A DNA stretch of 64,000 bases, from the NCBI RefSeq assembly GCF_002087085.1, contig NZ_MWQY01000001.1, positions 186,001 to 250,000 on the forward strand. Direction: 5' to 3'. Below, piece after piece: positions 15,001 to 33,000 of the stretch. Made by a program: the position numbers. Position 1 is the first letter of the stretch. Each line of letters begins with the position of its first letter.

Positions 15001-18000
15001 AATACCCGTATCCACAAGAACCCCGGTATCCCCCGCTTTGATCAGGTAGACATGAGCATGGCCGATGGAAACAGGGTGTATCTCCAGGAAAGGTAAAACG
15101 GGCTGCAAAAGGCACTTCTCCTCTGATTAATAGTGGTGTCCAAGAACGATGAAGAGTTCATAATTCTCTCCTCCCCAGTCGCCCTGGTCGATAACCGCCT
15201 TCAAATCGATCCCAAGGGATGTTCTAATATAATATCCCCTGGCGAAAAAGGGAAACCCGATGGCCTCAAGCCCCAGGCCCATCTTGAAGTGCTTATCCGG
15301 ATCAAAGGCCGTATCCTGCTCCTTGACCCATCCGGCGTCGAAGAAGACCGATCCCTGTCCTTCCACAAAATCAGGGATTGTGAAGGCCCTCATGGTCAGA
15401 TCGGTATTGATGAATCCCCCGTATTCCACAGCCTCACCCATCTTCAAATCCCGGATGCCCCGGATATAACTGGCGGCCTCTTCCTCGAACTCGCCGTCGA
15501 ACTCGGCAAAGCCGGCCACCCTGCCGGAAACCATGAAGGGCCAGAAAAGAATCCTGAAGGGAAGGGGATAGAATCCGGAGAGGGAAGCCCTGGCATCCCG
15601 GTTCCAATAGAGGTGCTGCAGGTTCCAGGTGTTGGTGTTCTCGATCCGCAGATCCACTCCCTTTCTGAAGTTCCCGATCCAGTCCACCTGGCCGGCCGTC
15701 AGGAGCTGTCCGTAGCCGATTCCGGGTCCCTCCTTCTCCCGGGATATGGGTTTATCGAACTTGTAATCGATCTCCGTATAGATCCCAGGGGTATAGATGA
15801 ACTGGCCGAAACCGGGAAGGAAGAGGCCGGTGGAGAAATCCTCCGCCAGTTCCAGCCGGGAGGTAATCCAGTTTTTGTCTATATCGGTGCTCTCGTAGTT
15901 GTAACTCTCCCTGAAGCTCAGGGTGGGGGTGTAGTCTTTTATCGGAAGATCGACGCCCACGGAGGTGTAGGACTCAAGATCATGCTCCCCCGCCGTGTAT
16001 TCCCAGTAGGCTGCCGTGTCCCAGTGCCACTGATGCTCCAGCCACTGGAAGGGCAGGATGAACTCCAGCTCCAGACGGTTGTTCGTATCCCCATCCTGGC
16101 GTTCCCAGGCGACATCCAGGGCGAAGCGTTCCAGGGTTCCGAAGAGATTCAGGTCGCGGTACTTGAGAGTCAGGGAAAAACCGTTGTTGGAATCGTACTC
16201 GGGGATAGGGAGCACGATTATGTTCCAGCTGTCCTCGGTGTAGATGTCCAGGCGTACCGGGTAGTGTCCGCCGGTCTTTTCTCCAACTGAGTATTCAATC
16301 CGGGAGCTCTCCTTCAGCTGCCTCAGGTTCAGAAGCAGCTGCCGCTGTTCGGCTATAAAATTCTGCAGCTCGTTTTCGCTCTGAAAGGAGATCCCTGTTC
16401 TCAGGTCGCCGAGCTCCTTCATGAGTGCACCTTTTCGGGTGATTCCATCAATATGATAGTTGATTTCCTCCACCATATATGGGCCTTCGGAACTCCCCGG
16501 TTCCGGGGCCTGGGCGAAAAGGCCGCTGGTAAGGATCAGCAGAAGGGCGATACCAGGATAGAGTCGGAAAGCGGTTCTCACGTACAGCTCCTTGAACAGT
16601 TCATGTCACTATCTATGTACCACAGGAAAGCAAAAAATCACAGTCCGCTCTTTTTTTCCATATTTTTGTATACGGTAAAATCAGGAGGATTTTTCGCCGG
16701 TTTACCCTGTATATGAAAGAAAAAATGCGTGCCGCTGTCTGCGGGGCGGGAATCGCTCTACTCTGTCTGCTTGTCGGCATGGAGATCCTCTCCTTTATCC
16801 GTGTAAAAAGCACTTTTATCGAACTCGGTGACCTTCTTCATACTCAGCATGGTGAACGCATGAAAGCTGTTCTGAACCTTGAAGAAGCTGTAAGCGCCGG
16901 TTTCGAGTGTACTGCGGAGGCCTTAAACGGGCTTGAGACGATAGAGCGTTCCCTGAGCGAATGCCTGTACGCCATGAACAGACAATTTTCTTCTGATCTT
17001 GCAGCTGTCCGCCGGGGACAGACAGTTCTGGCCGCAGCCCTGAAGGAGACAGACTTCAGGCCACAGGACCCCGGGGATGATCTGTTTGTGCAGTCCCTGT
17101 TCAGAAAGGGGCAGGATAGTTTCGCCGCAGAACGCTACGGAGAAGCCGCGGTCAGCATGTCGGAGGTGCTTTCTCTCGTGCCGGATTTCCATGAAGCGCG
17201 CCTGATCCGTGCCGCAGCGTTTTACCGGGAAAACCCTCTGGACTCCGGACGCCGGGAAGAGATCAGGGCCGATCTTGCTGTGGTCTTAACCAGGGAGCCT
17301 CATAACATCCTTGCCCTGGCGACCATGGGAAGTATTGCCCTTGAGGAACAGGACTGGCCGAGGGCGCGTCGGTACTGTCGGCACCTCATCGAAGTGGATG
17401 ACCGTAATATCGAGGCTGCCCGGATGTTCGTTGTCGCCTGCCGGGGGGAAGGCTGTATCGAGGAGGCTGAAGAAGAGATTACCCTGCTTTTACAGGATGA
17501 TCCGGACAATCCCCGCTACCTGCTGTACCGCGGTGAAGTGCTGGAGAATCAGAAGAAGTATGGCCAGGCCCTTGCTTCCTACGAGGCAGCCTGCAGGCGG
17601 GATCCTGCCTATTTTCCTGCGCTGCTCGGGGCAGCCCGCACGGCCGCAAATTCGGGAAACTACCCCCGTGCCAGGAAGCTTCTCAGCTCTCCTTCGGTTC
17701 CGAAGAATTATGAAACCTGCAGCCTGCTTGGGGAGTGCTGTATAAGGCTGGGCGAGACTGACGATGCAGTAAGCTGGTGGAAAAGGGCGGCTGCCTCCCT
17801 GACACTGAATACACCCGAGGATACAAAAAAGGCTGCGGATTGTTATCTGAAGATTGCCCGGTATTCTTCTGAAGCTGTCGACTTTGAAGGAGCCTTGAGG
17901 GCGGCGGCAAAGGGGCTTCGGCTTTCCGAAAATCCGGAGCTGCACCTGATCAGGGCAAAAGCCCTGCTGGAAACCGGTCGAAAGGACGAGGCACAGGAGG

Positions 18001-30000: not shown

Positions 30001-33000
30001 GGACCGGAACTGGGGGATCCGAACAGGGAGGGGTTTTCTATTGTAGAAGCGGCGAATTGGTATAGTTATGTGAGTAATAATCCGGTGATGTATGTTGATC
30101 CTACGGGATTAGAAAGCGCCGATGCAGCAAAACATTGGTACAACGCAATCTATGAACAGAATAAGGGATGGGAAATAACTCAAGATTATGGCTCTGCTGA
30201 AATGGCATCAATGGGATACTACCCAAAATCTAATGGGATTCATACAGGTGTCGATCTGAAGAAGACAGATGACTTAGGAAATAACGTAACAACAGGTACA
30301 CCTATTTTTCCGGATCGACCGGGTAAAATTAAATATATTAGAGATGAAGATCCAGGCTGTGGATTTGGTAAGTATGTCGGAATTGAAAGTGAGGATGGAT
30401 CTAATATTGAGGTACTTGCTCACTTAGATTCCATCGCTCCTGAAATTAGAGTAGGTTTCTACGTTGATAAAACGACTTCTGTGGGAACAGGTGGAAATAC
30501 TGGGAATTCAACAGGGCCACATTTACATAAACAAGTACAGCGAGATGTTCTAAAAAATGGAAGGACTCCTGGGATGGGTGCTGATGGAAATGTCGTTCAA
30601 AGTATGAGTAATTATGACAGAATTACTATTCCAGTATCAAAATCATGGTTTATGAGGTAACAAATGAAAGCATTGAAAATTTCTACCATTGTTGTATTTC
30701 TATTTTTAGCTACCGCATGTACTGAAGCCGATGAATCAAACCGTTCTACAGAAGTCGCAGAGCTAAAAGCAAAGGTTTACAATCTCCAGTCTGAAAATGA
30801 AAAACTGAAAGAGCGTAATGAAGAATTAACTACTGCCAATTCAACTCTAATCAAGGAGAAGAGTAGTCTATACAACCCTTTTTCTGGTAGTGGAAATCCT
30901 TTTAAATCCTTCCTGTTTTCCAACTCAACATCTTTTCCTTTTGGATATCTACAGGTTACAGGTTACTTCGAAGAAATTTTGATCTCAGATGTTGATAATG
31001 GATTAGAAGGACTTTGTCCGTTCTTTGTTGTTAATGAGATGGATTCAGATTTAAGTAACTACTTTTGGTCAATGATAAACAAGGGTAATACGTTCAATCG
31101 AAATATCGATGATCATATAGGTCTTTCTCTCAATCTTGATGATACACCAGAGATCATCATTGATGAACTGAAATCGAGTAGTAAGGAAATCACTGTCATC
31201 GGCTATCTAAGAGATTTAGAACTTGGTGGAAATATGACGTTGTGTAATCAGTATTTTACTCCCTTGGCAGTAATTTCCCCATAATAACCGTATTACACAG
31301 CATCCCGGAATTCTCCGGGATGCCTGTCCGAATTATTATATTATGCAGTACGTAATGAGATTATTTATTTATATGTACTACAGTAGTAGTTTATCTGCTT
31401 TTGGGGATAAATTGAACAGAAGTAACGATCGCAATTTTCTGTCGTCCATTCATCAGGCATGAAGAACCTTTGAGACTGAAAAAAAGCGCATGATCGAAAC
31501 CGTTGTTGGCTAATGGTTCTTCATTTCTCAGAAGCCAGTGCGAATCCTTTCATAAAGCTCTCTTGCATAATAAAGAATACAAAAAGGGGCGGAATCATGG
31601 TAATCATGACTCCTGCCATAATGACGCCCCAGTTATTCATCGCTTCGGCCTGGATAAGCATTTTGACGCCGATTTGAACTACGCGCATCTGCTTGGAGTT
31701 GGTAGCCATCAGCGGCCAGAGATACTGGTTCCATATATATATAAACTCGATTACCGTGAGGGCGCCAATTGAGTTTTTGGATAAGGGAATAAGGATTTGA
31801 AACAGGTATCGAAGGGGGTGACATCCATCCATCTTGGCAGCATCGAGAAGTTCAAGGGGAATGGTACGGAATCGCTGGACGAAGAGAAACGTCCCGGTTG
31901 CACTTGCCAGGAAGGGAAAAATAAGTCCGGCATATGTATCTATCCAGCCGAAACTGCTTACGATGCCGAAAAGAGCTACTATGCGTACCGGTATGGGCAG
32001 CAGCAGGGTTATGATTACTATGAAGAAGAGCAGGTTCTTTCCCTTGAAGTCGAAGTGGGTAAAAGCAAAGGCCGCCAACAGGCTGAATACTATTTTTCCA
32101 GCTGTCACGGCAGCTGCAATAATTGTTGAATTCAACATCATCCGGCCGAGGCTGACGCTTCGCCACGCGGCAGTGTAATTACTGAAATGTGCGGAAGGAA
32201 GAAGTTTAGGAGGTGAAGAGTAGACTTCCGCCGGTGTTTGCGTACTTATAACGAATGAAAGCACAACGGGAAGGCTGACTATCAGGATGCTGAGGATTAT
32301 CACAGCATGCAGGGCGATTGTCTGTAATCTTGTACGTTTCATGGCTTTTTCCTATTGATAGTAGACCTTACGGCCGGTTGTCTTGAACTGTATCAATGTA
32401 AGAAACACTACAAGGGTGAACAAAATAAGACTCTCAGCAGCGGCGTATCCGGTCTTCGCGTTGACAAAAAAGTCTCTGTATAACTGATAGATAAGAATAT
32501 TTGTTGAATTCGCCGGTCCACCTTCCGTGAGAACATCTATCAAACCGAAGGACTGGAAATATGAGTAGATAATATTCATTATCAGGAGAAAAAAGGTAGT
32601 AGGCGAGAGCATCGGAAAAGTAATGTAGATGAACCTCTTGACGGAGCCCGCCCCGTCGATCGCTGCCGACTCTATGGCTTCTTTCTGCACATTCTGCAGA
32701 CCTGCAAGATAAAATATAATGTTGTACCCGAGGTTTTTCCATGTGGCCGCCACTGTTACCACCAGAATCGCGAGGGTGCTGTTGGTAAGCCACTCCACAT
32801 TCATACCGGTGGCTACCTGGAAAAAATGGTTCATATACCCATTGGCAGGGTTAAAAAGGAATCTGAATATTGCTCCCGATATCGCCGGGGACAGGGCGTA
32901 GGGCCATATAAGCAGGGTACGGTAGATTTTAATCCCTTTTATATCCTGATTCAGCATGAGAGCGATCAGTAAACTGATGCTGAGGCCTGCGAGTACCACT

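What a model noticed while it worked through the whole genome (the two positions that open the first line are those of the whole stretch)
16713..31284. Conserved outer-membrane-protein plus two-lipoprotein module precedes giant SpvB-RHS polymorphic toxins of spirochaetes [...]
Two paralogous cassettes (C1:202713-217284; C33:2398-12162, cut by the contig end) share the order TPR protein, ~350-aa secreted protein A (g00197/g02637), ~260-aa lipoprotein B (g00198/g02638), ~225-aa lipoprotein C (g00199/g02639), then a giant Sec-signal SpvB/TcdB-mid/RHS toxin (g00200, 3335 aa, C-terminal M23 peptidoglycan peptidase; g02640 >=1919 aa) and on C1 a low-GC lipoprotein (g00201, likely immunity). A, B and C have no family. 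Models: A = TolB-N-like domain plus 8-stranded OmpA/OmpX-like barrel; B = Fn3 plus PPC-like; C = ConA/CBM66-like lectin fold. The trio is linked to such toxins in relatives and metagenomes: a dedicated accessory (anchoring or delivery) module for TcB/TcC-ty [...]
Evidence so far: Tables and call 23: no Pfam/NCBIfam/Swiss-Prot for A, B, C. Call 60: paralogue pairs 28%, 36%, 33% identical over 87-97%. Calls 64-66, 70: B profile hits 10 of 300 other Spirochaetota genomes; in 5 of 5 loci fetched B and C (5/5) and A (4/5) lie directly upstream of a 1702-3450-aa ORF matching g00200. Call 83: A profile finds 259 clusters of ~340 aa. Calls 93, 95, 96: AF2 pLDDT 90.8, 80.2, 85.6; calls 98, 99: Foldseek A = TolB and OmpA/OmpX/OmpW (E 1e-7 to 1e-5), C = CBM66/galectin/GH16. 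Calls 167-168: 58 metagenome loci with B; where room allows, A upstream in 40 of 48, C downstream in 35 of 37, toxin N-terminal 900 residues further downstream in 20 of 26. Call 59: no VgrG/Hcp/PAAR families [...]
(Added by a program. Inside this text positions count along the whole contig: contig position 186,001 is position 1 of the stretch shown here. "Call 12" and the like, gene names such as g00115 and contig names such as C1 are that model's own, and its searches are not shown. The text may have been shortened before it was handed on; [...] marks where a part breaks off. The agent that wrote the report below was given it as the finding of a first reader that could run no searches.)

Follow-up and report, generated by a model that had tools for sequence, protein, structure and literature searches.

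The report
Secretin-linked helper genes for giant toxins
Four small envelope-protein genes sit in front of a giant bacteria-killing 'cocoon' toxin gene in spirochaetes, and in relatives the same set lies inside the operon of a type II secretion machine, which suggests how such huge toxins leave the cell.

Summary
Window 16713-31284 is one tight operon: a membrane-anchored TPR protein, secreted protein A, lipoproteins B and C, a 3345-aa Sec-signal SpvB/TcdB-mid/RHS toxin ending in an M23 peptidase, and a low-GC lipoprotein. A paralogous cassette lies on contig C33. A, B and C match no Pfam or NCBIfam family. A folds as a TolB-N-like domain plus an 8-stranded barrel. B begins with an Fn3 domain.

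The linkage to the toxin recurs in every other genome and metagenome locus that has room. One thing is new. In treponeme-type relatives A-B-C-toxin is the 3' end of a complete type II secretion operon, gspD-E-F-G-...-X-Y-A-B-C-toxin. In one genus that has no gspE, F or G, an N-terminally truncated GspD secretin under purifying selection sits between B and C. Other treponeme gsp operons without A-B-C end in a different giant RHS gene.

My best reading is that the toxin crosses the outer membrane with the help of a GspD secretin, and that TPR/Y, A, B and C are cargo-specific accessory proteins. In the window's own genome the gsp operon lies on another contig, so this step is inferred. The roles of A, B and C are untested. 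A-B pairs also accompany non-RHS giant proteins.

The parts
16713..18092 (+). TPR protein (459 aa) with an N-terminal hydrophobic anchor. It is the first gene of the operon and holds the same position as the TM/TPR-like protein Y of treponeme loci.
   Evidence: TPR_19 4e-24, TPR_2 9e-20. The paralogue on C33 is 27% identical. The link to Y is weak: hhalign probability 47%, and a 51%-identical homologue hits the Y profile at 2.5e-4, but the window protein itself does not hit it significantly.
18085..19155 (+). Protein A (356 aa from the ATG at 18085; the ORF opens at a TTG at 18064). It has a Sec signal, a periplasmic TolB-N-like alpha/beta domain and an 8-stranded OmpA/OmpX-like outer-membrane barrel.
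   Evidence: 261 clusters; pLDDT 92.5, eight long strands at 173-343; Foldseek TolB 6e-7, OmpA 8e-7, OmpX 5e-6, FlgT 1e-4.
19152..19934 (+). Lipoprotein B (260 aa). It has a lipobox, a conserved N-terminal 'R...DP' stretch, an Fn3 domain and a second beta-sandwich with an EPND...DxDWY motif.
Evidence: pLDDT 89.0; residues 30-124 are Fn3: Z 12.4, rmsd 2.1 over 89 residues; best Foldseek E 9e-5; includes a Bacteroides surface glycan-binding lipoprotein. My fold lists did not resolve it.
19931..20623 (+). Lipoprotein C (230 aa), directly upstream of the toxin.
   Evidence: A C gene lies directly before each of two toxin copies in G065, where Y, A, B and the secretin are deleted.
20623..30660 (+). 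Giant fused TcB/TcC-like RHS polymorphic toxin (3345 aa): Sec signal, a possible ZU5-like N-domain, SpvB, about 1200 aa without any family, FG-GAP propeller, TcdB-midN, RHS shell, Rhs core and a C-terminal M23 peptidase.
   Evidence: TcdB2-TccC3 8e-33, YenC2 1e-15, SpvB 5.5e-7, M23/lysostaphin 1e-7 to 6e-4. ZU5 is only a lead (Atlas score 0.82).
21325..21801 (+). SpvB domain of the toxin (residues 235-393).
   Evidence: PF03534 6.5e-24.
26497..26856 (+). TcdB_toxin_midN domain (residues 1959-2078).
   Evidence: PF12256 5e-25.
29836..30111 (+). Rhs-associated core ending in YVDPTGL (residues 3072-3163). This is the border between the conserved shell and the variable toxin tip.
   Evidence: (TIGR03696 3.5e-21). 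The GC drop starts here.
30283..30543 (+). M23 peptidoglycan endopeptidase domain (residues 3221-3307). HTGVD lies at 3207-3211 and HLH at 3300-3302.
   Evidence: (PF01551 1.8e-10). That HxxxD and HxH are the metal ligands of M23 enzymes is recalled knowledge.
30664..31284 (+). Low-GC lipoprotein (206 aa) with a coiled-coil segment. It is the candidate immunity protein.
   Evidence: GC 0.34-0.37. Its position right after the toxin matches the unrelated small ORFs after each relative's toxin. Its function is untested.

Best explanation
The locus encodes an antibacterial polymorphic toxin system. A Sec-exported, fused TcB/TcC-type RHS cocoon carries an M23 peptidoglycan peptidase as its exchangeable tip. 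The low-GC lipoprotein downstream is the likely immunity protein. Four envelope proteins are encoded in front of the toxin: an inner-membrane-anchored TPR protein, the outer-membrane protein A, and lipoproteins B and C. I read them as a cargo-specific accessory complex that receives the toxin in the periplasm and couples it to a GspD secretin for passage across, or display at, the outer membrane. In this reading A and B form an outer-membrane-anchored pair, and C is the member nearest to the toxin. Shown here: the gene order, the domains, the folds of A and of the first domain of B, the co-occurrence with toxins, and the physical embedding of the module in gsp operons or around a truncated secretin in relatives. 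Inferred: that the secretin is the conduit, that the window's own cassette uses the gsp system encoded on contig C18, and what A, B and C each do.
For: Toxin anatomy.

Linkage of A, B and C to the toxin:
- 10 loci from other genomes.
- 20 metagenome loci: B follows in 16 of 16, C in 13 of 13 and the toxin in 13 of 13 where room allows.
- The strong A hits and strong B hits fall in the same 10 other genomes of 401. In G030 the A copy is only a remnant with a stop.

Link to type II secretion:
- In 7 genome loci the string gspD-E-F-G, two pseudopilin-like genes, an L-like gene, X, Y, A, B, C runs co-directionally into the toxin. The loci are G260, G054, G195, G314, L086, L087 and L091. G314's contig ends after C.
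- 15 of 15 treponeme-type metagenome loci with upstream room show the same string.
- In G195 a second toxin follows gspG directly.
- In genus g2 a 400-aa secretin lies between B and C (PF00263 7e-27). It equals the C-terminal half of GspD, 44-46% identical. It is intact in 4 of 4 species, with dN/dS 0.09-0.13.
- Those g2 genomes lack gspE over the cut-off (0 of 3 tested), gspF (0 of 5) and gspG (0 of 5).
- In family f2 all 8 B-positive genomes have a secretin, against 11 of the 42 others.
- Control gsp operons without A-B-C (G302, G329, G326, G365) end in Peptidase_C11 plus a DUF6531/RHS protein of about 2000 aa in 4 of 4.
- The window's own genome has one intact gsp operon, with X, on C18, next to a 2026-aa Tat-signal RHS gene.

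Decay pattern: G030 has no secretin, an A remnant and a toxin split into 4 ORFs.

Precedent: the activity of Xanthomonas perforans Bcn-A, a 1398-aa RHS bacteriocin, is lost in an xpsD secretin mutant and needs accessory ORFs (PMC7259588, passages).

A-B contact, from complex prediction: weak support. Score 0.55, best of 3 controls 0.00. The mark was reached by 116 of 157 solved complexes and 2 of 215 mismatched pairs. At 0.60 or under it was reached by only 18 of those 157 and by both mismatches that passed. The runs agree in at least 96% of contacts, and the partner's pLDDT is at least 80.
Against: - In the window, in its C33 paralogue and in the close relatives L085, L098 and L099, the cassette is not next to gsp genes. 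For this clade the secretin link is by analogy only.
- G065 keeps two intact C-toxin pairs although Y, A, B and the secretin are deleted. The toxin gene can therefore persist without the module, at least for a while.
- 81 of 401 genomes of the phylum carry TcdB_midN proteins but only 15-18 carry A or B. Most such toxins do without this module.
- A-B pairs precede non-RHS giant proteins in G104 and G032.
- A folded TcB-TcC cocoon is, from recalled structures, about as wide as or wider than a secretin lumen, so passage of the folded toxin is not obvious.
- The loci are related to each other, and the collection scans used one peptide pattern taken from A. The counts are therefore not independent samples.
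- The A-B complex score is weak.
- No expression data exist.
Confidence: 0.55

Rival explanations
1. A and B, with the TPR/Y protein, form a general outer-membrane platform that anchors or displays very large Sec-exported proteins on the spirochaete surface. The toxin is only one client. The neighbouring T2SS supplies export but has no specific tie to A, B or C.
For: In G104, A is followed by lipoproteins made of up to 10 tandem B units (2175 aa), and then by non-RHS giants. In G032 the order is a 423-aa TM protein, A, a 571-aa lipoprotein, then proteins of 1209 and 2204 aa with Glucodextran_B/Big_13 domains. B resembles surface glycan-binding lipoproteins. A-B complex: weak support, 0.55 against 0.00 (with the caveats given there).
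Against: In the window-type and treponeme-type loci the downstream gene is the toxin in every locus with room except L035. In g2 the secretin lies inside the module, between B and C. This rival partly overlaps the best explanation.
Confidence: 0.2
2. The adjacency to gsp genes is historical only. A toxin island (Y-A-B-C-toxin-immunity) was inserted once at the end of a treponeme gsp operon and was inherited from there. Export uses another route, such as vesicles or lysis.
For: All the gsp-linked loci are related treponeme-type sequences. The window clade has the cassette elsewhere in the genome. Known Tc toxins of Yersinia are released by a lysis cassette (recalled, not read here).
Against: Two unrelated RHS toxin types, with different accessory genes, both end gsp operons. 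A second toxin sits right after gspG in G195. g2 lost gspE, F, G and the pseudopilin genes yet kept a truncated secretin inside the module under purifying selection. The window genome's own gsp operon neighbours another RHS gene. No lysis genes were seen in the Pfam scan of 11 flanking ORFs, though I did not search for them specifically.
Confidence: 0.12
3. A, B and C protect the producer. They hold or shield the toxin, or the cell wall, in the periplasm during transit, acting as a chaperone or extra immunity layer rather than as export or anchoring parts.
For: The toxin tip is a peptidoglycan peptidase that passes through the producer's own periplasm. A's N-domain has the fold of TolB-N and of FlgT, which are periplasmic scaffold proteins. 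C stays paired with each toxin copy.
Against: The toxin tips differ among relatives: none of 4 relatives' toxins scanned has M23. A, B and C are conserved all the same. A separate variable immunity-like ORF follows each toxin. In Tc-type cocoons the tip is enclosed (recalled).
Confidence: 0.08

Closest known systems
Tc toxin TcB-TcC cocoons (Photorhabdus TcdB2-TccC3, Yersinia YenB-YenC)
   Same: SpvB N-domain, FG-GAP propeller, TcdB-midN, RHS shell, Rhs core, and an exchangeable C-terminal toxin. Sequence matches to solved chains reach 8e-33.
   Different: One fused 3345-aa chain with a Sec signal. About 1200 extra residues lie between SpvB and the propeller. The tip is an M23 peptidase, which points to bacterial targets. 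No TcA was found in the genome (the family controls rang nowhere, so this is inconclusive). The neighbours are A, B, C and, in relatives, T2SS genes.
[quoted passage not shown] 2012, PMC3482391; passages read)
   Same: The defining architecture is a signal peptide, SpvB, an integrin-like propeller and RHS, often with an N-terminal ZU5 domain. The paper lists it for spirochaetes too.
   Different: In the passages I read, that paper defines the pathway by the toxin's own domains. I saw no mention of an outer-membrane apparatus, of A, B or C, or of a gsp or secretin link. I did not read the whole text or its supplements.
Xanthomonas perforans bacteriocin Bcn-A (PMC7259588; passages read)
   Same: An RHS-family antibacterial toxin whose activity is lost in a T2SS secretin (xpsD) mutant. 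It needs accessory ORFs from the same locus and has an immunity gene downstream.
   Different: It has 1398 aa and no SpvB or TcdB-mid part is reported. I did not compare its accessory ORFs with A, B or C. Its locus is not part of the gsp operon.
Type II secretion systems with secretin pilotins and cargo-recruiting parts (GspC, GspS, AspS; recalled)
   Same: GspD, E, F, G and pseudopilin-like genes in one operon, plus small lipoproteins beside the secretin.
   Different: The cargo gene is the last gene of the operon and encodes 3200-3450 aa. A, B and C match no T2SS family. One genus keeps only a secretin lacking its N-terminal half (no N0 domain), with no ATPase, platform or pseudopilin genes.
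T6SS Rhs effectors with PAAR/VgrG and Eag chaperones (recalled)
   Same: An RHS shell with an exchangeable tip, an immunity gene, and small accessory genes upstream.
   Different: The toxin has a Sec signal instead of PAAR. No Hcp or PAAR family was found in the genome.

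Membership tests
TcB/TcC-type (BC) RHS cocoon | N-terminal SpvB domain | tested here: met
   PF03534 6.5e-24, residues 235-393. Solved SpvB chain 6p0x 5.5e-7.
TcB/TcC-type (BC) RHS cocoon | FG-GAP beta-propeller and TcdB middle/N region | tested here: met
   PF12256 5e-25. FG-GAP 5.9e-9 and FG-GAP_3 7.6e-8, whole-protein scores only.
TcB/TcC-type (BC) RHS cocoon | RHS/YD shell closed by an Rhs core that ends in DPxGL before the toxin tip | tested here: met
   RHS_repeat 1.3e-18 and TIGR03696 3.5e-21 at 3072-3163. DPTGL at 3159-3163. TcdB2-TccC3 8e-33. Autoproteolysis was not tested.
Tc (ABC) toxin complex | A TcA pentamer partner encoded in the genome | tested here: inconclusive
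   PF18276 and PF03538 gave 0 matches in G000. The same searches rang in none of the 14 control genomes, and the genome is 97% complete.
Rhs-type polymorphic toxin system | Conserved core with a variable C-terminal tip, an immunity gene downstream, and spare tips elsewhere in the genome | tested here: met
   Alignments to relatives stop at about residues 3162-3177. None of 4 relatives' toxins scanned has M23. GC drops at the core's end. Small unrelated ORFs follow each toxin. RHS C-terminal fragments lie on 5 small contigs of G000 (C36, C39, C40, C43, C48) and in arrays in g2. Immunity itself is untested.
Type II secretion substrate | Sec or Tat signal, and a complete T2SS in the same genome | tested here: met
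   The N-terminus has a hydrophobic signal ending in VYA-EA. gspD, E, F and G lie on G000:C18.
Type II secretion substrate | Genetic linkage to gsp genes | tested here: inconclusive
   Not met in the window, in C33 or in L085, L098 and L099. Met in 7 genome loci and in 15 of 15 metagenome loci of the treponeme type. A secretin lies inside the module in 4 g2 genomes.
Type II secretion substrate | Loss of export when the secretin or ATPase is removed | not testable with these tools
   This needs a knock-out and a localisation assay.
T6SS Rhs effector | PAAR or VgrG linkage and a T6SS in the genome | tested here: not met
   No PAAR in the toxin. Hcp (PF05638) and PAAR (PF05488) gave 0 matches in G000, with positive controls ringing.
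OmpA/OmpX-like 8-stranded outer-membrane barrel (protein A, C-terminal half) | Eight antiparallel membrane-spanning strands, preceded by a signal peptide | tested here: met
   Model pLDDT 92.5 with eight long strands at 173-343. Foldseek gives OmpA 8e-7 (TM to target 0.58-0.66), OmpX, Ail and OmpW. Sequence families: none for the window protein, and only sub-threshold OMP_b-brl hits (2.5e-3) for a relative.
Fn3 plus PPC-like lipoprotein (protein B) | An Fn3 fold followed by a pre-peptidase-C-terminal-like sandwich | tested here: inconclusive
   Fn3 is met: Z 12.4, rmsd 2.1 over 89 residues, at residues 30-124. My fold lists did not resolve the second domain. No Pfam hit in 9 of 9 members. The EPND...DxDWY motif fits PPC only by recall.

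The most novel reading that the evidence does not exclude
The secretin stands in for the missing TcA. The RHS cocoon never leaves the producer's periplasm. Held by A, B and C, it docks under a GspD-type secretin and ejects its unfolded toxin tip through the secretin pore. This would explain why one genus can keep only the pore half of GspD, with no ATPase or pseudopilus. It would also explain how a cocoon too wide for a secretin can still deliver its cargo.
Probability: 0.1. Interest if true: 0.95.

Novelty: new variant of a known kind. Interest (0 to 1): 0.72.

Why it matters
Sec-signal RHS toxins with SpvB and a propeller have been catalogued for years as a 'TcdB/TcaC pathway', but no outer-membrane route has been assigned to them in diderm bacteria. 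Here the toxin gene and four family-less envelope genes are written into type II secretion operons. A natural 'minimal' version also exists: a truncated secretin plus X, Y, A, B and C, with no ATPase. Together these give a concrete, testable export route and a short list of parts.

If the route holds, three things follow:
- It would be by far the largest T2SS-linked cargo known.
- It would show cargo-specific accessory proteins for a T2SS.
- It would show a secretin working without its pseudopilus machine.

It also marks the T2SS of host-associated treponemes as a likely interbacterial weapon system. In my sample, 10 of the 12 gsp operons examined end in a giant RHS gene.

Tried and rejected
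A closer 8-row A alignment worked. It gave a single peptide pattern, so those loci are a biased sample of the A family.
- Is Y homologous to the window's TPR protein? hmmsearch of the Y profile on the window protein was not significant and hhalign gave only 47% probability. I treat the two as positional analogues.
- Y, X and L-like profiles against the last genes of the window genome's own gsp operon: only X was found clearly (4e-26). The L-like match was weak.
- The Pfam scan of all 9 B members gave nothing.
- The promoter and terminator scan was no better than shuffles for promoters and was uninformative.
- No RNA holder is listed among the public runs, so I laid no reads.
- ZU5 for the toxin's first 200 residues: only an Atlas lead at 0.82, below the level that counts, and no Pfam hit.
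- Mobile-element origin of the cassette: the 11 flanking ORFs scanned include ABC transporter, helicase, metallo-beta-lactamase-fold and two-component genes, one gave no Pfam family, and none is an integrase or transposase.
- I did not test C-toxin binding, because the one complex job went to A+B.

Full report
**The observation.** Window 16713-31284 holds six co-directional genes that overlap by 1-8 nt or lie 3 nt apart:
- a 459-aa TPR protein with an N-terminal membrane anchor;
- A (356 aa from the ATG at 18085);
- lipoprotein B (260 aa);
- lipoprotein C (230 aa);
- a 3345-aa protein;
- a 206-aa lipoprotein.

Pfam and NCBIfam give TPR families for the first gene. For A, B and C they give nothing at a level that counts: C's single Pfam row has E 0.091. 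For the giant protein they give SpvB, FG-GAP, TcdB_toxin_midN, RHS repeats, the Rhs-associated core and Peptidase_M23. A second cassette on contig C33 has the same order and is cut by the contig end. Its identities to the window copy are 29% (A), 36% (B), 33% (C) and 30% (toxin).

**The toxin.** Its sequence matches solved TcdB2-TccC3 (8e-33), YenC2, SpvB and M23/lysostaphin chains.
- The Rhs core ends in YVDPTGL at residues 3157-3163.
- The HxxxD and HxH motifs of M23 enzymes are present, as HTGVD at 3207 and HLH at 3300. That these are the metal ligands is recalled knowledge.
- GC falls from about 0.55 to about 0.37 exactly at the core's end and stays low through the next gene.
- Relatives share the body, but alignments stop near residue 3162-3177. 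None of 4 relatives' toxins scanned carries M23.
- The genome holds further RHS C-terminal fragments on small contigs.

This is a polymorphic Rhs-type toxin of the class that Zhang et al. 2012 call the 'TcdB/TcaC export pathway': signal peptide, SpvB, propeller and RHS, which they also list for spirochaetes (PMC3482391, passages). A peptidoglycan peptidase as the tip, followed by a lipoprotein, points to bacterial targets and periplasmic immunity. That is inference. No TcA, Hcp or PAAR family was found in the genome, but the TcA searches had no positive control.

**The small proteins.**
- A. An A profile finds 261 representative clusters of about 340 aa. With 108 rows AlphaFold2 gives pLDDT 92.5: a signal helix, an alpha/beta domain and eight long strands. 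Foldseek matches TolB through its N-domain, FlgT, and OmpA, OmpX, Ail and OmpW (6e-7 to 1e-4).
- B. With 22 rows the model reaches pLDDT 89.0. Residues 30-124 are an Fn3 domain, Z 12.4. The whole model weakly resembles two-domain surface glycan-binding lipoproteins and CBMs. Its second domain has an EPND...DxDWY motif that I know from PPC domains only by recall.
- C. I did not re-model it. An Atlas lead to clusters with PF06439 fits a ConA-like fold.
- A with B. A complex prediction gave weak support: score 0.55, best control 0.00. At this level the tool's calibration says a pass is more often wrong than right unless the pair was likely beforehand. The runs agree in at least 96% of contacts and the partner's pLDDT is at least 80. 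The two genes overlap by 4 nt and always co-occur.

**Linkage, re-measured.** B finds 18 of 401 genomes of the phylum, 10 of them (besides G000) strongly. The A profile finds the same 10. I fetched 10 loci from those genomes:
- A lies upstream of B in 8. One locus (G030) has a remnant with a stop, and one is cut at the contig end.
- C lies downstream in 10.
- A toxin homologue follows in 8 of the 9 with room. The exception is a B plus truncated-C stub beside flagellar genes.

In 20 metagenome loci found through A, B follows in 16 of 16, C in 13 of 13 and the toxin in 13 of 13 where room allows. These scans used one peptide pattern from A, and the loci are related. The numbers show consistency, not independent events.

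In treponeme-type loci the genes upstream of A are a full type II secretion operon. The order is gspD (secretin), gspE, gspF, gspG, two pseudopilin-like genes, a 460-550-aa L-like gene, a lipoprotein X, a membrane-anchored TPR-like protein Y, then A, B, C and the toxin, all on one strand.
- I see this in 7 genome loci: G260, G054, G195, G314 (whose contig ends after C), and the records titled Treponema sp. UBA4328, Treponema sp. UBA6852 and Spirochaetales bacterium S22M_St_39.
- I see it in 15 of 15 treponeme-type metagenome loci with upstream room.
- In G195 a second giant toxin follows gspG directly.
- In genus g2 (4 species) the order is X, Y, A, B, a 400-aa secretin, C, toxin.
- That secretin is the C-terminal half (N3 plus pore) of the spirochaete GspD, 44-46% identical, with a new signal peptide. 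It is intact in all four species, with dN/dS 0.09-0.13. The other five module genes give 0.05-0.34.
- The g2 genomes have no gspE over the cut-off (0 of 3 tested), no gspF (0 of 5) and no gspG (0 of 5).
- In genus g2 the secretin family is found in exactly the four B-positive genomes of nine.
- In family f2 all 8 B-positive genomes have a secretin, against 11 of the 42 others.

**Controls and exceptions.**
- Four treponeme genomes with a secretin but without A or B (G302, G329, G326, G365) have gsp operons that end in X, a protein of about 155 aa, a clostripain-family peptidase (C11) and a DUF6531/RHS protein of about 2000 aa. A fifth (G117) shows gspD-E-F and then other genes before its contig ends.
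- So of 12 gsp operons examined in genomes, 10 run into a giant RHS gene of one of two types, one ends at A-B-C with the contig, and one does not.
- The window's own genome has a single secretin, in an intact gsp operon on contig C18. That operon ends with an X homologue (4e-26) and lies back to back with Tat genes, a radical-SAM/SPASM gene and a 2026-aa twin-arginine-signal DUF6531/RHS protein.
- Its two A-B-C-toxin cassettes, and those of its close relatives L085, L098 and L099, are not next to gsp genes.
- G065 has lost Y, A, B and the secretin, of which a 35-residue remnant is left. It keeps two intact C-toxin pairs.
- G030 has no secretin, a decayed A and a toxin in four pieces.
- In other families A-B pairs precede non-RHS giants. 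In G104, B is expanded to ten tandem units.
- TcdB_midN proteins occur in 81 of 401 genomes, far more than A or B.

**The mechanism I think most likely (confidence about 0.55).** The toxin is exported by Sec and folds in the periplasm. It is then handled by a complex of the TPR/Y protein (inner-membrane side), A (outer membrane, with a periplasmic TolB-N-like domain), and the lipoproteins B and C. This complex couples the toxin to a GspD secretin for passage or surface display. C is the partner nearest the toxin, and A-B is the membrane anchor.

The g2 arrangement suggests that the pore half of the secretin together with X, Y, A, B and C can suffice without the pseudopilus motor. The main physical objection is size: from recalled structures, a folded cocoon is about as wide as a secretin lumen. 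A bolder reading avoids this objection. In it the cocoon docks under the secretin, as it docks on TcA in Tc toxins, and only the unfolded tip leaves.

The rivals are a general display platform for giant proteins, a purely historical adjacency with export by vesicles or lysis, and producer protection. They are weighed in their own sections.

**What is known.**
- The toxin class is known.
- T2SS-dependent activity of an RHS bacteriocin with accessory ORFs is known from Xanthomonas perforans Bcn-A (PMC7259588, passages).
- RHS/YD genes of Treponema denticola and T. pedis are mentioned only as counts (PMC8049484, passages).
- My full-text searches found no paper that links treponeme or spirochaete gsp operons, secretins or these small proteins to RHS toxins. 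The term sets were: Treponema with YD repeat and RHS; type II secretion with Rhs, polymorphic toxin and secretin; Treponema denticola with secretin; T2SS with Rhs and spirochete; TcdB_toxin_midN with SpvB; and Treponema with GspD and Rhs. The library covers open-access text only, and I read no supplements.

**Limits.**
- There is no expression or protein data.
- The counts come from related genomes.
- For the window's own clade the secretin link is by analogy.
- The roles of A, B and C are inferred from folds, order and co-occurrence.
- The A-B contact has only weak computational support.

Noticed in passing
G000:C18 (L045:7047-19965; L044/L045 for the gsp operon): The window genome's only gsp operon lies back to back with TatC/TatA-like genes, a radical-SAM/SPASM gene, a 2026-aa DUF6531/RHS protein with a twin-arginine signal, a WG-repeat protein and another RHS fragment. 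A Tat-signal RHS protein beside a maturase-like gene is unusual.
   Followed up: partly
L093, L094, L096, L097 (G302, G329, G326, G365): Treponeme gsp operons without A-B-C end in X, a protein of about 155 aa, a Peptidase_C11 (clostripain) protein of 438-721 aa, and a DUF6531/RHS protein of about 2000 aa. In L094 the next ORF carries a NADase_transloc domain. This is a second operon-encoded RHS cargo type with a protease as accessory.
   Followed up: partly
L072:1-6527 (-), L074:3-6056 (+) (G104): Lipoproteins made of up to ten tandem copies of the B unit (2017-2175 aa) lie directly after A homologues. This looks like a long stalk built from the B module.
   Followed up: no
L046, L047 (G065): One species of genus g2 has a deletion that removed Y, A, B and the secretin. 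A 35-residue secretin remnant and a truncated X are left, and two intact C-toxin pairs remain in tandem.
   Followed up: yes
L027 (G030): A decaying copy: an A remnant with a stop, B and C intact, the toxin in four ORFs, and no secretin in the genome.
   Followed up: yes
L082, L083, L084 (G215, G284): Arrays of 5'-truncated RHS C-terminal cassettes. Each begins with a similar short N-terminal peptide and is followed by a small ORF, typical of spare toxin tips with immunity genes.
   Followed up: no
window 20623-30660 (toxin residues about 3045-3162): The Rhs core also matches mosquito salivary gland surface proteins SGS1 and SGS4 (3364-3398 aa) among solved structures (2e-9 and 1e-7).
   Followed up: no
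window 21802-25443 (toxin residues about 394-1607): About 1200 residues between the SpvB domain and the first FG-GAP hit match no family. Canonical TcB proteins have no such insert (alignments; the comparison is partly recalled).
   Followed up: no
window 15127-16581 (-): A 484-aa ORF, divergent from the operon's first gene, matches no Pfam family.
   Followed up: no
L112 (metagenome): One gsp-A-B-C-toxin locus has GspD and A each split into two ORFs. These are frameshifts, or assembly errors.
   Followed up: no
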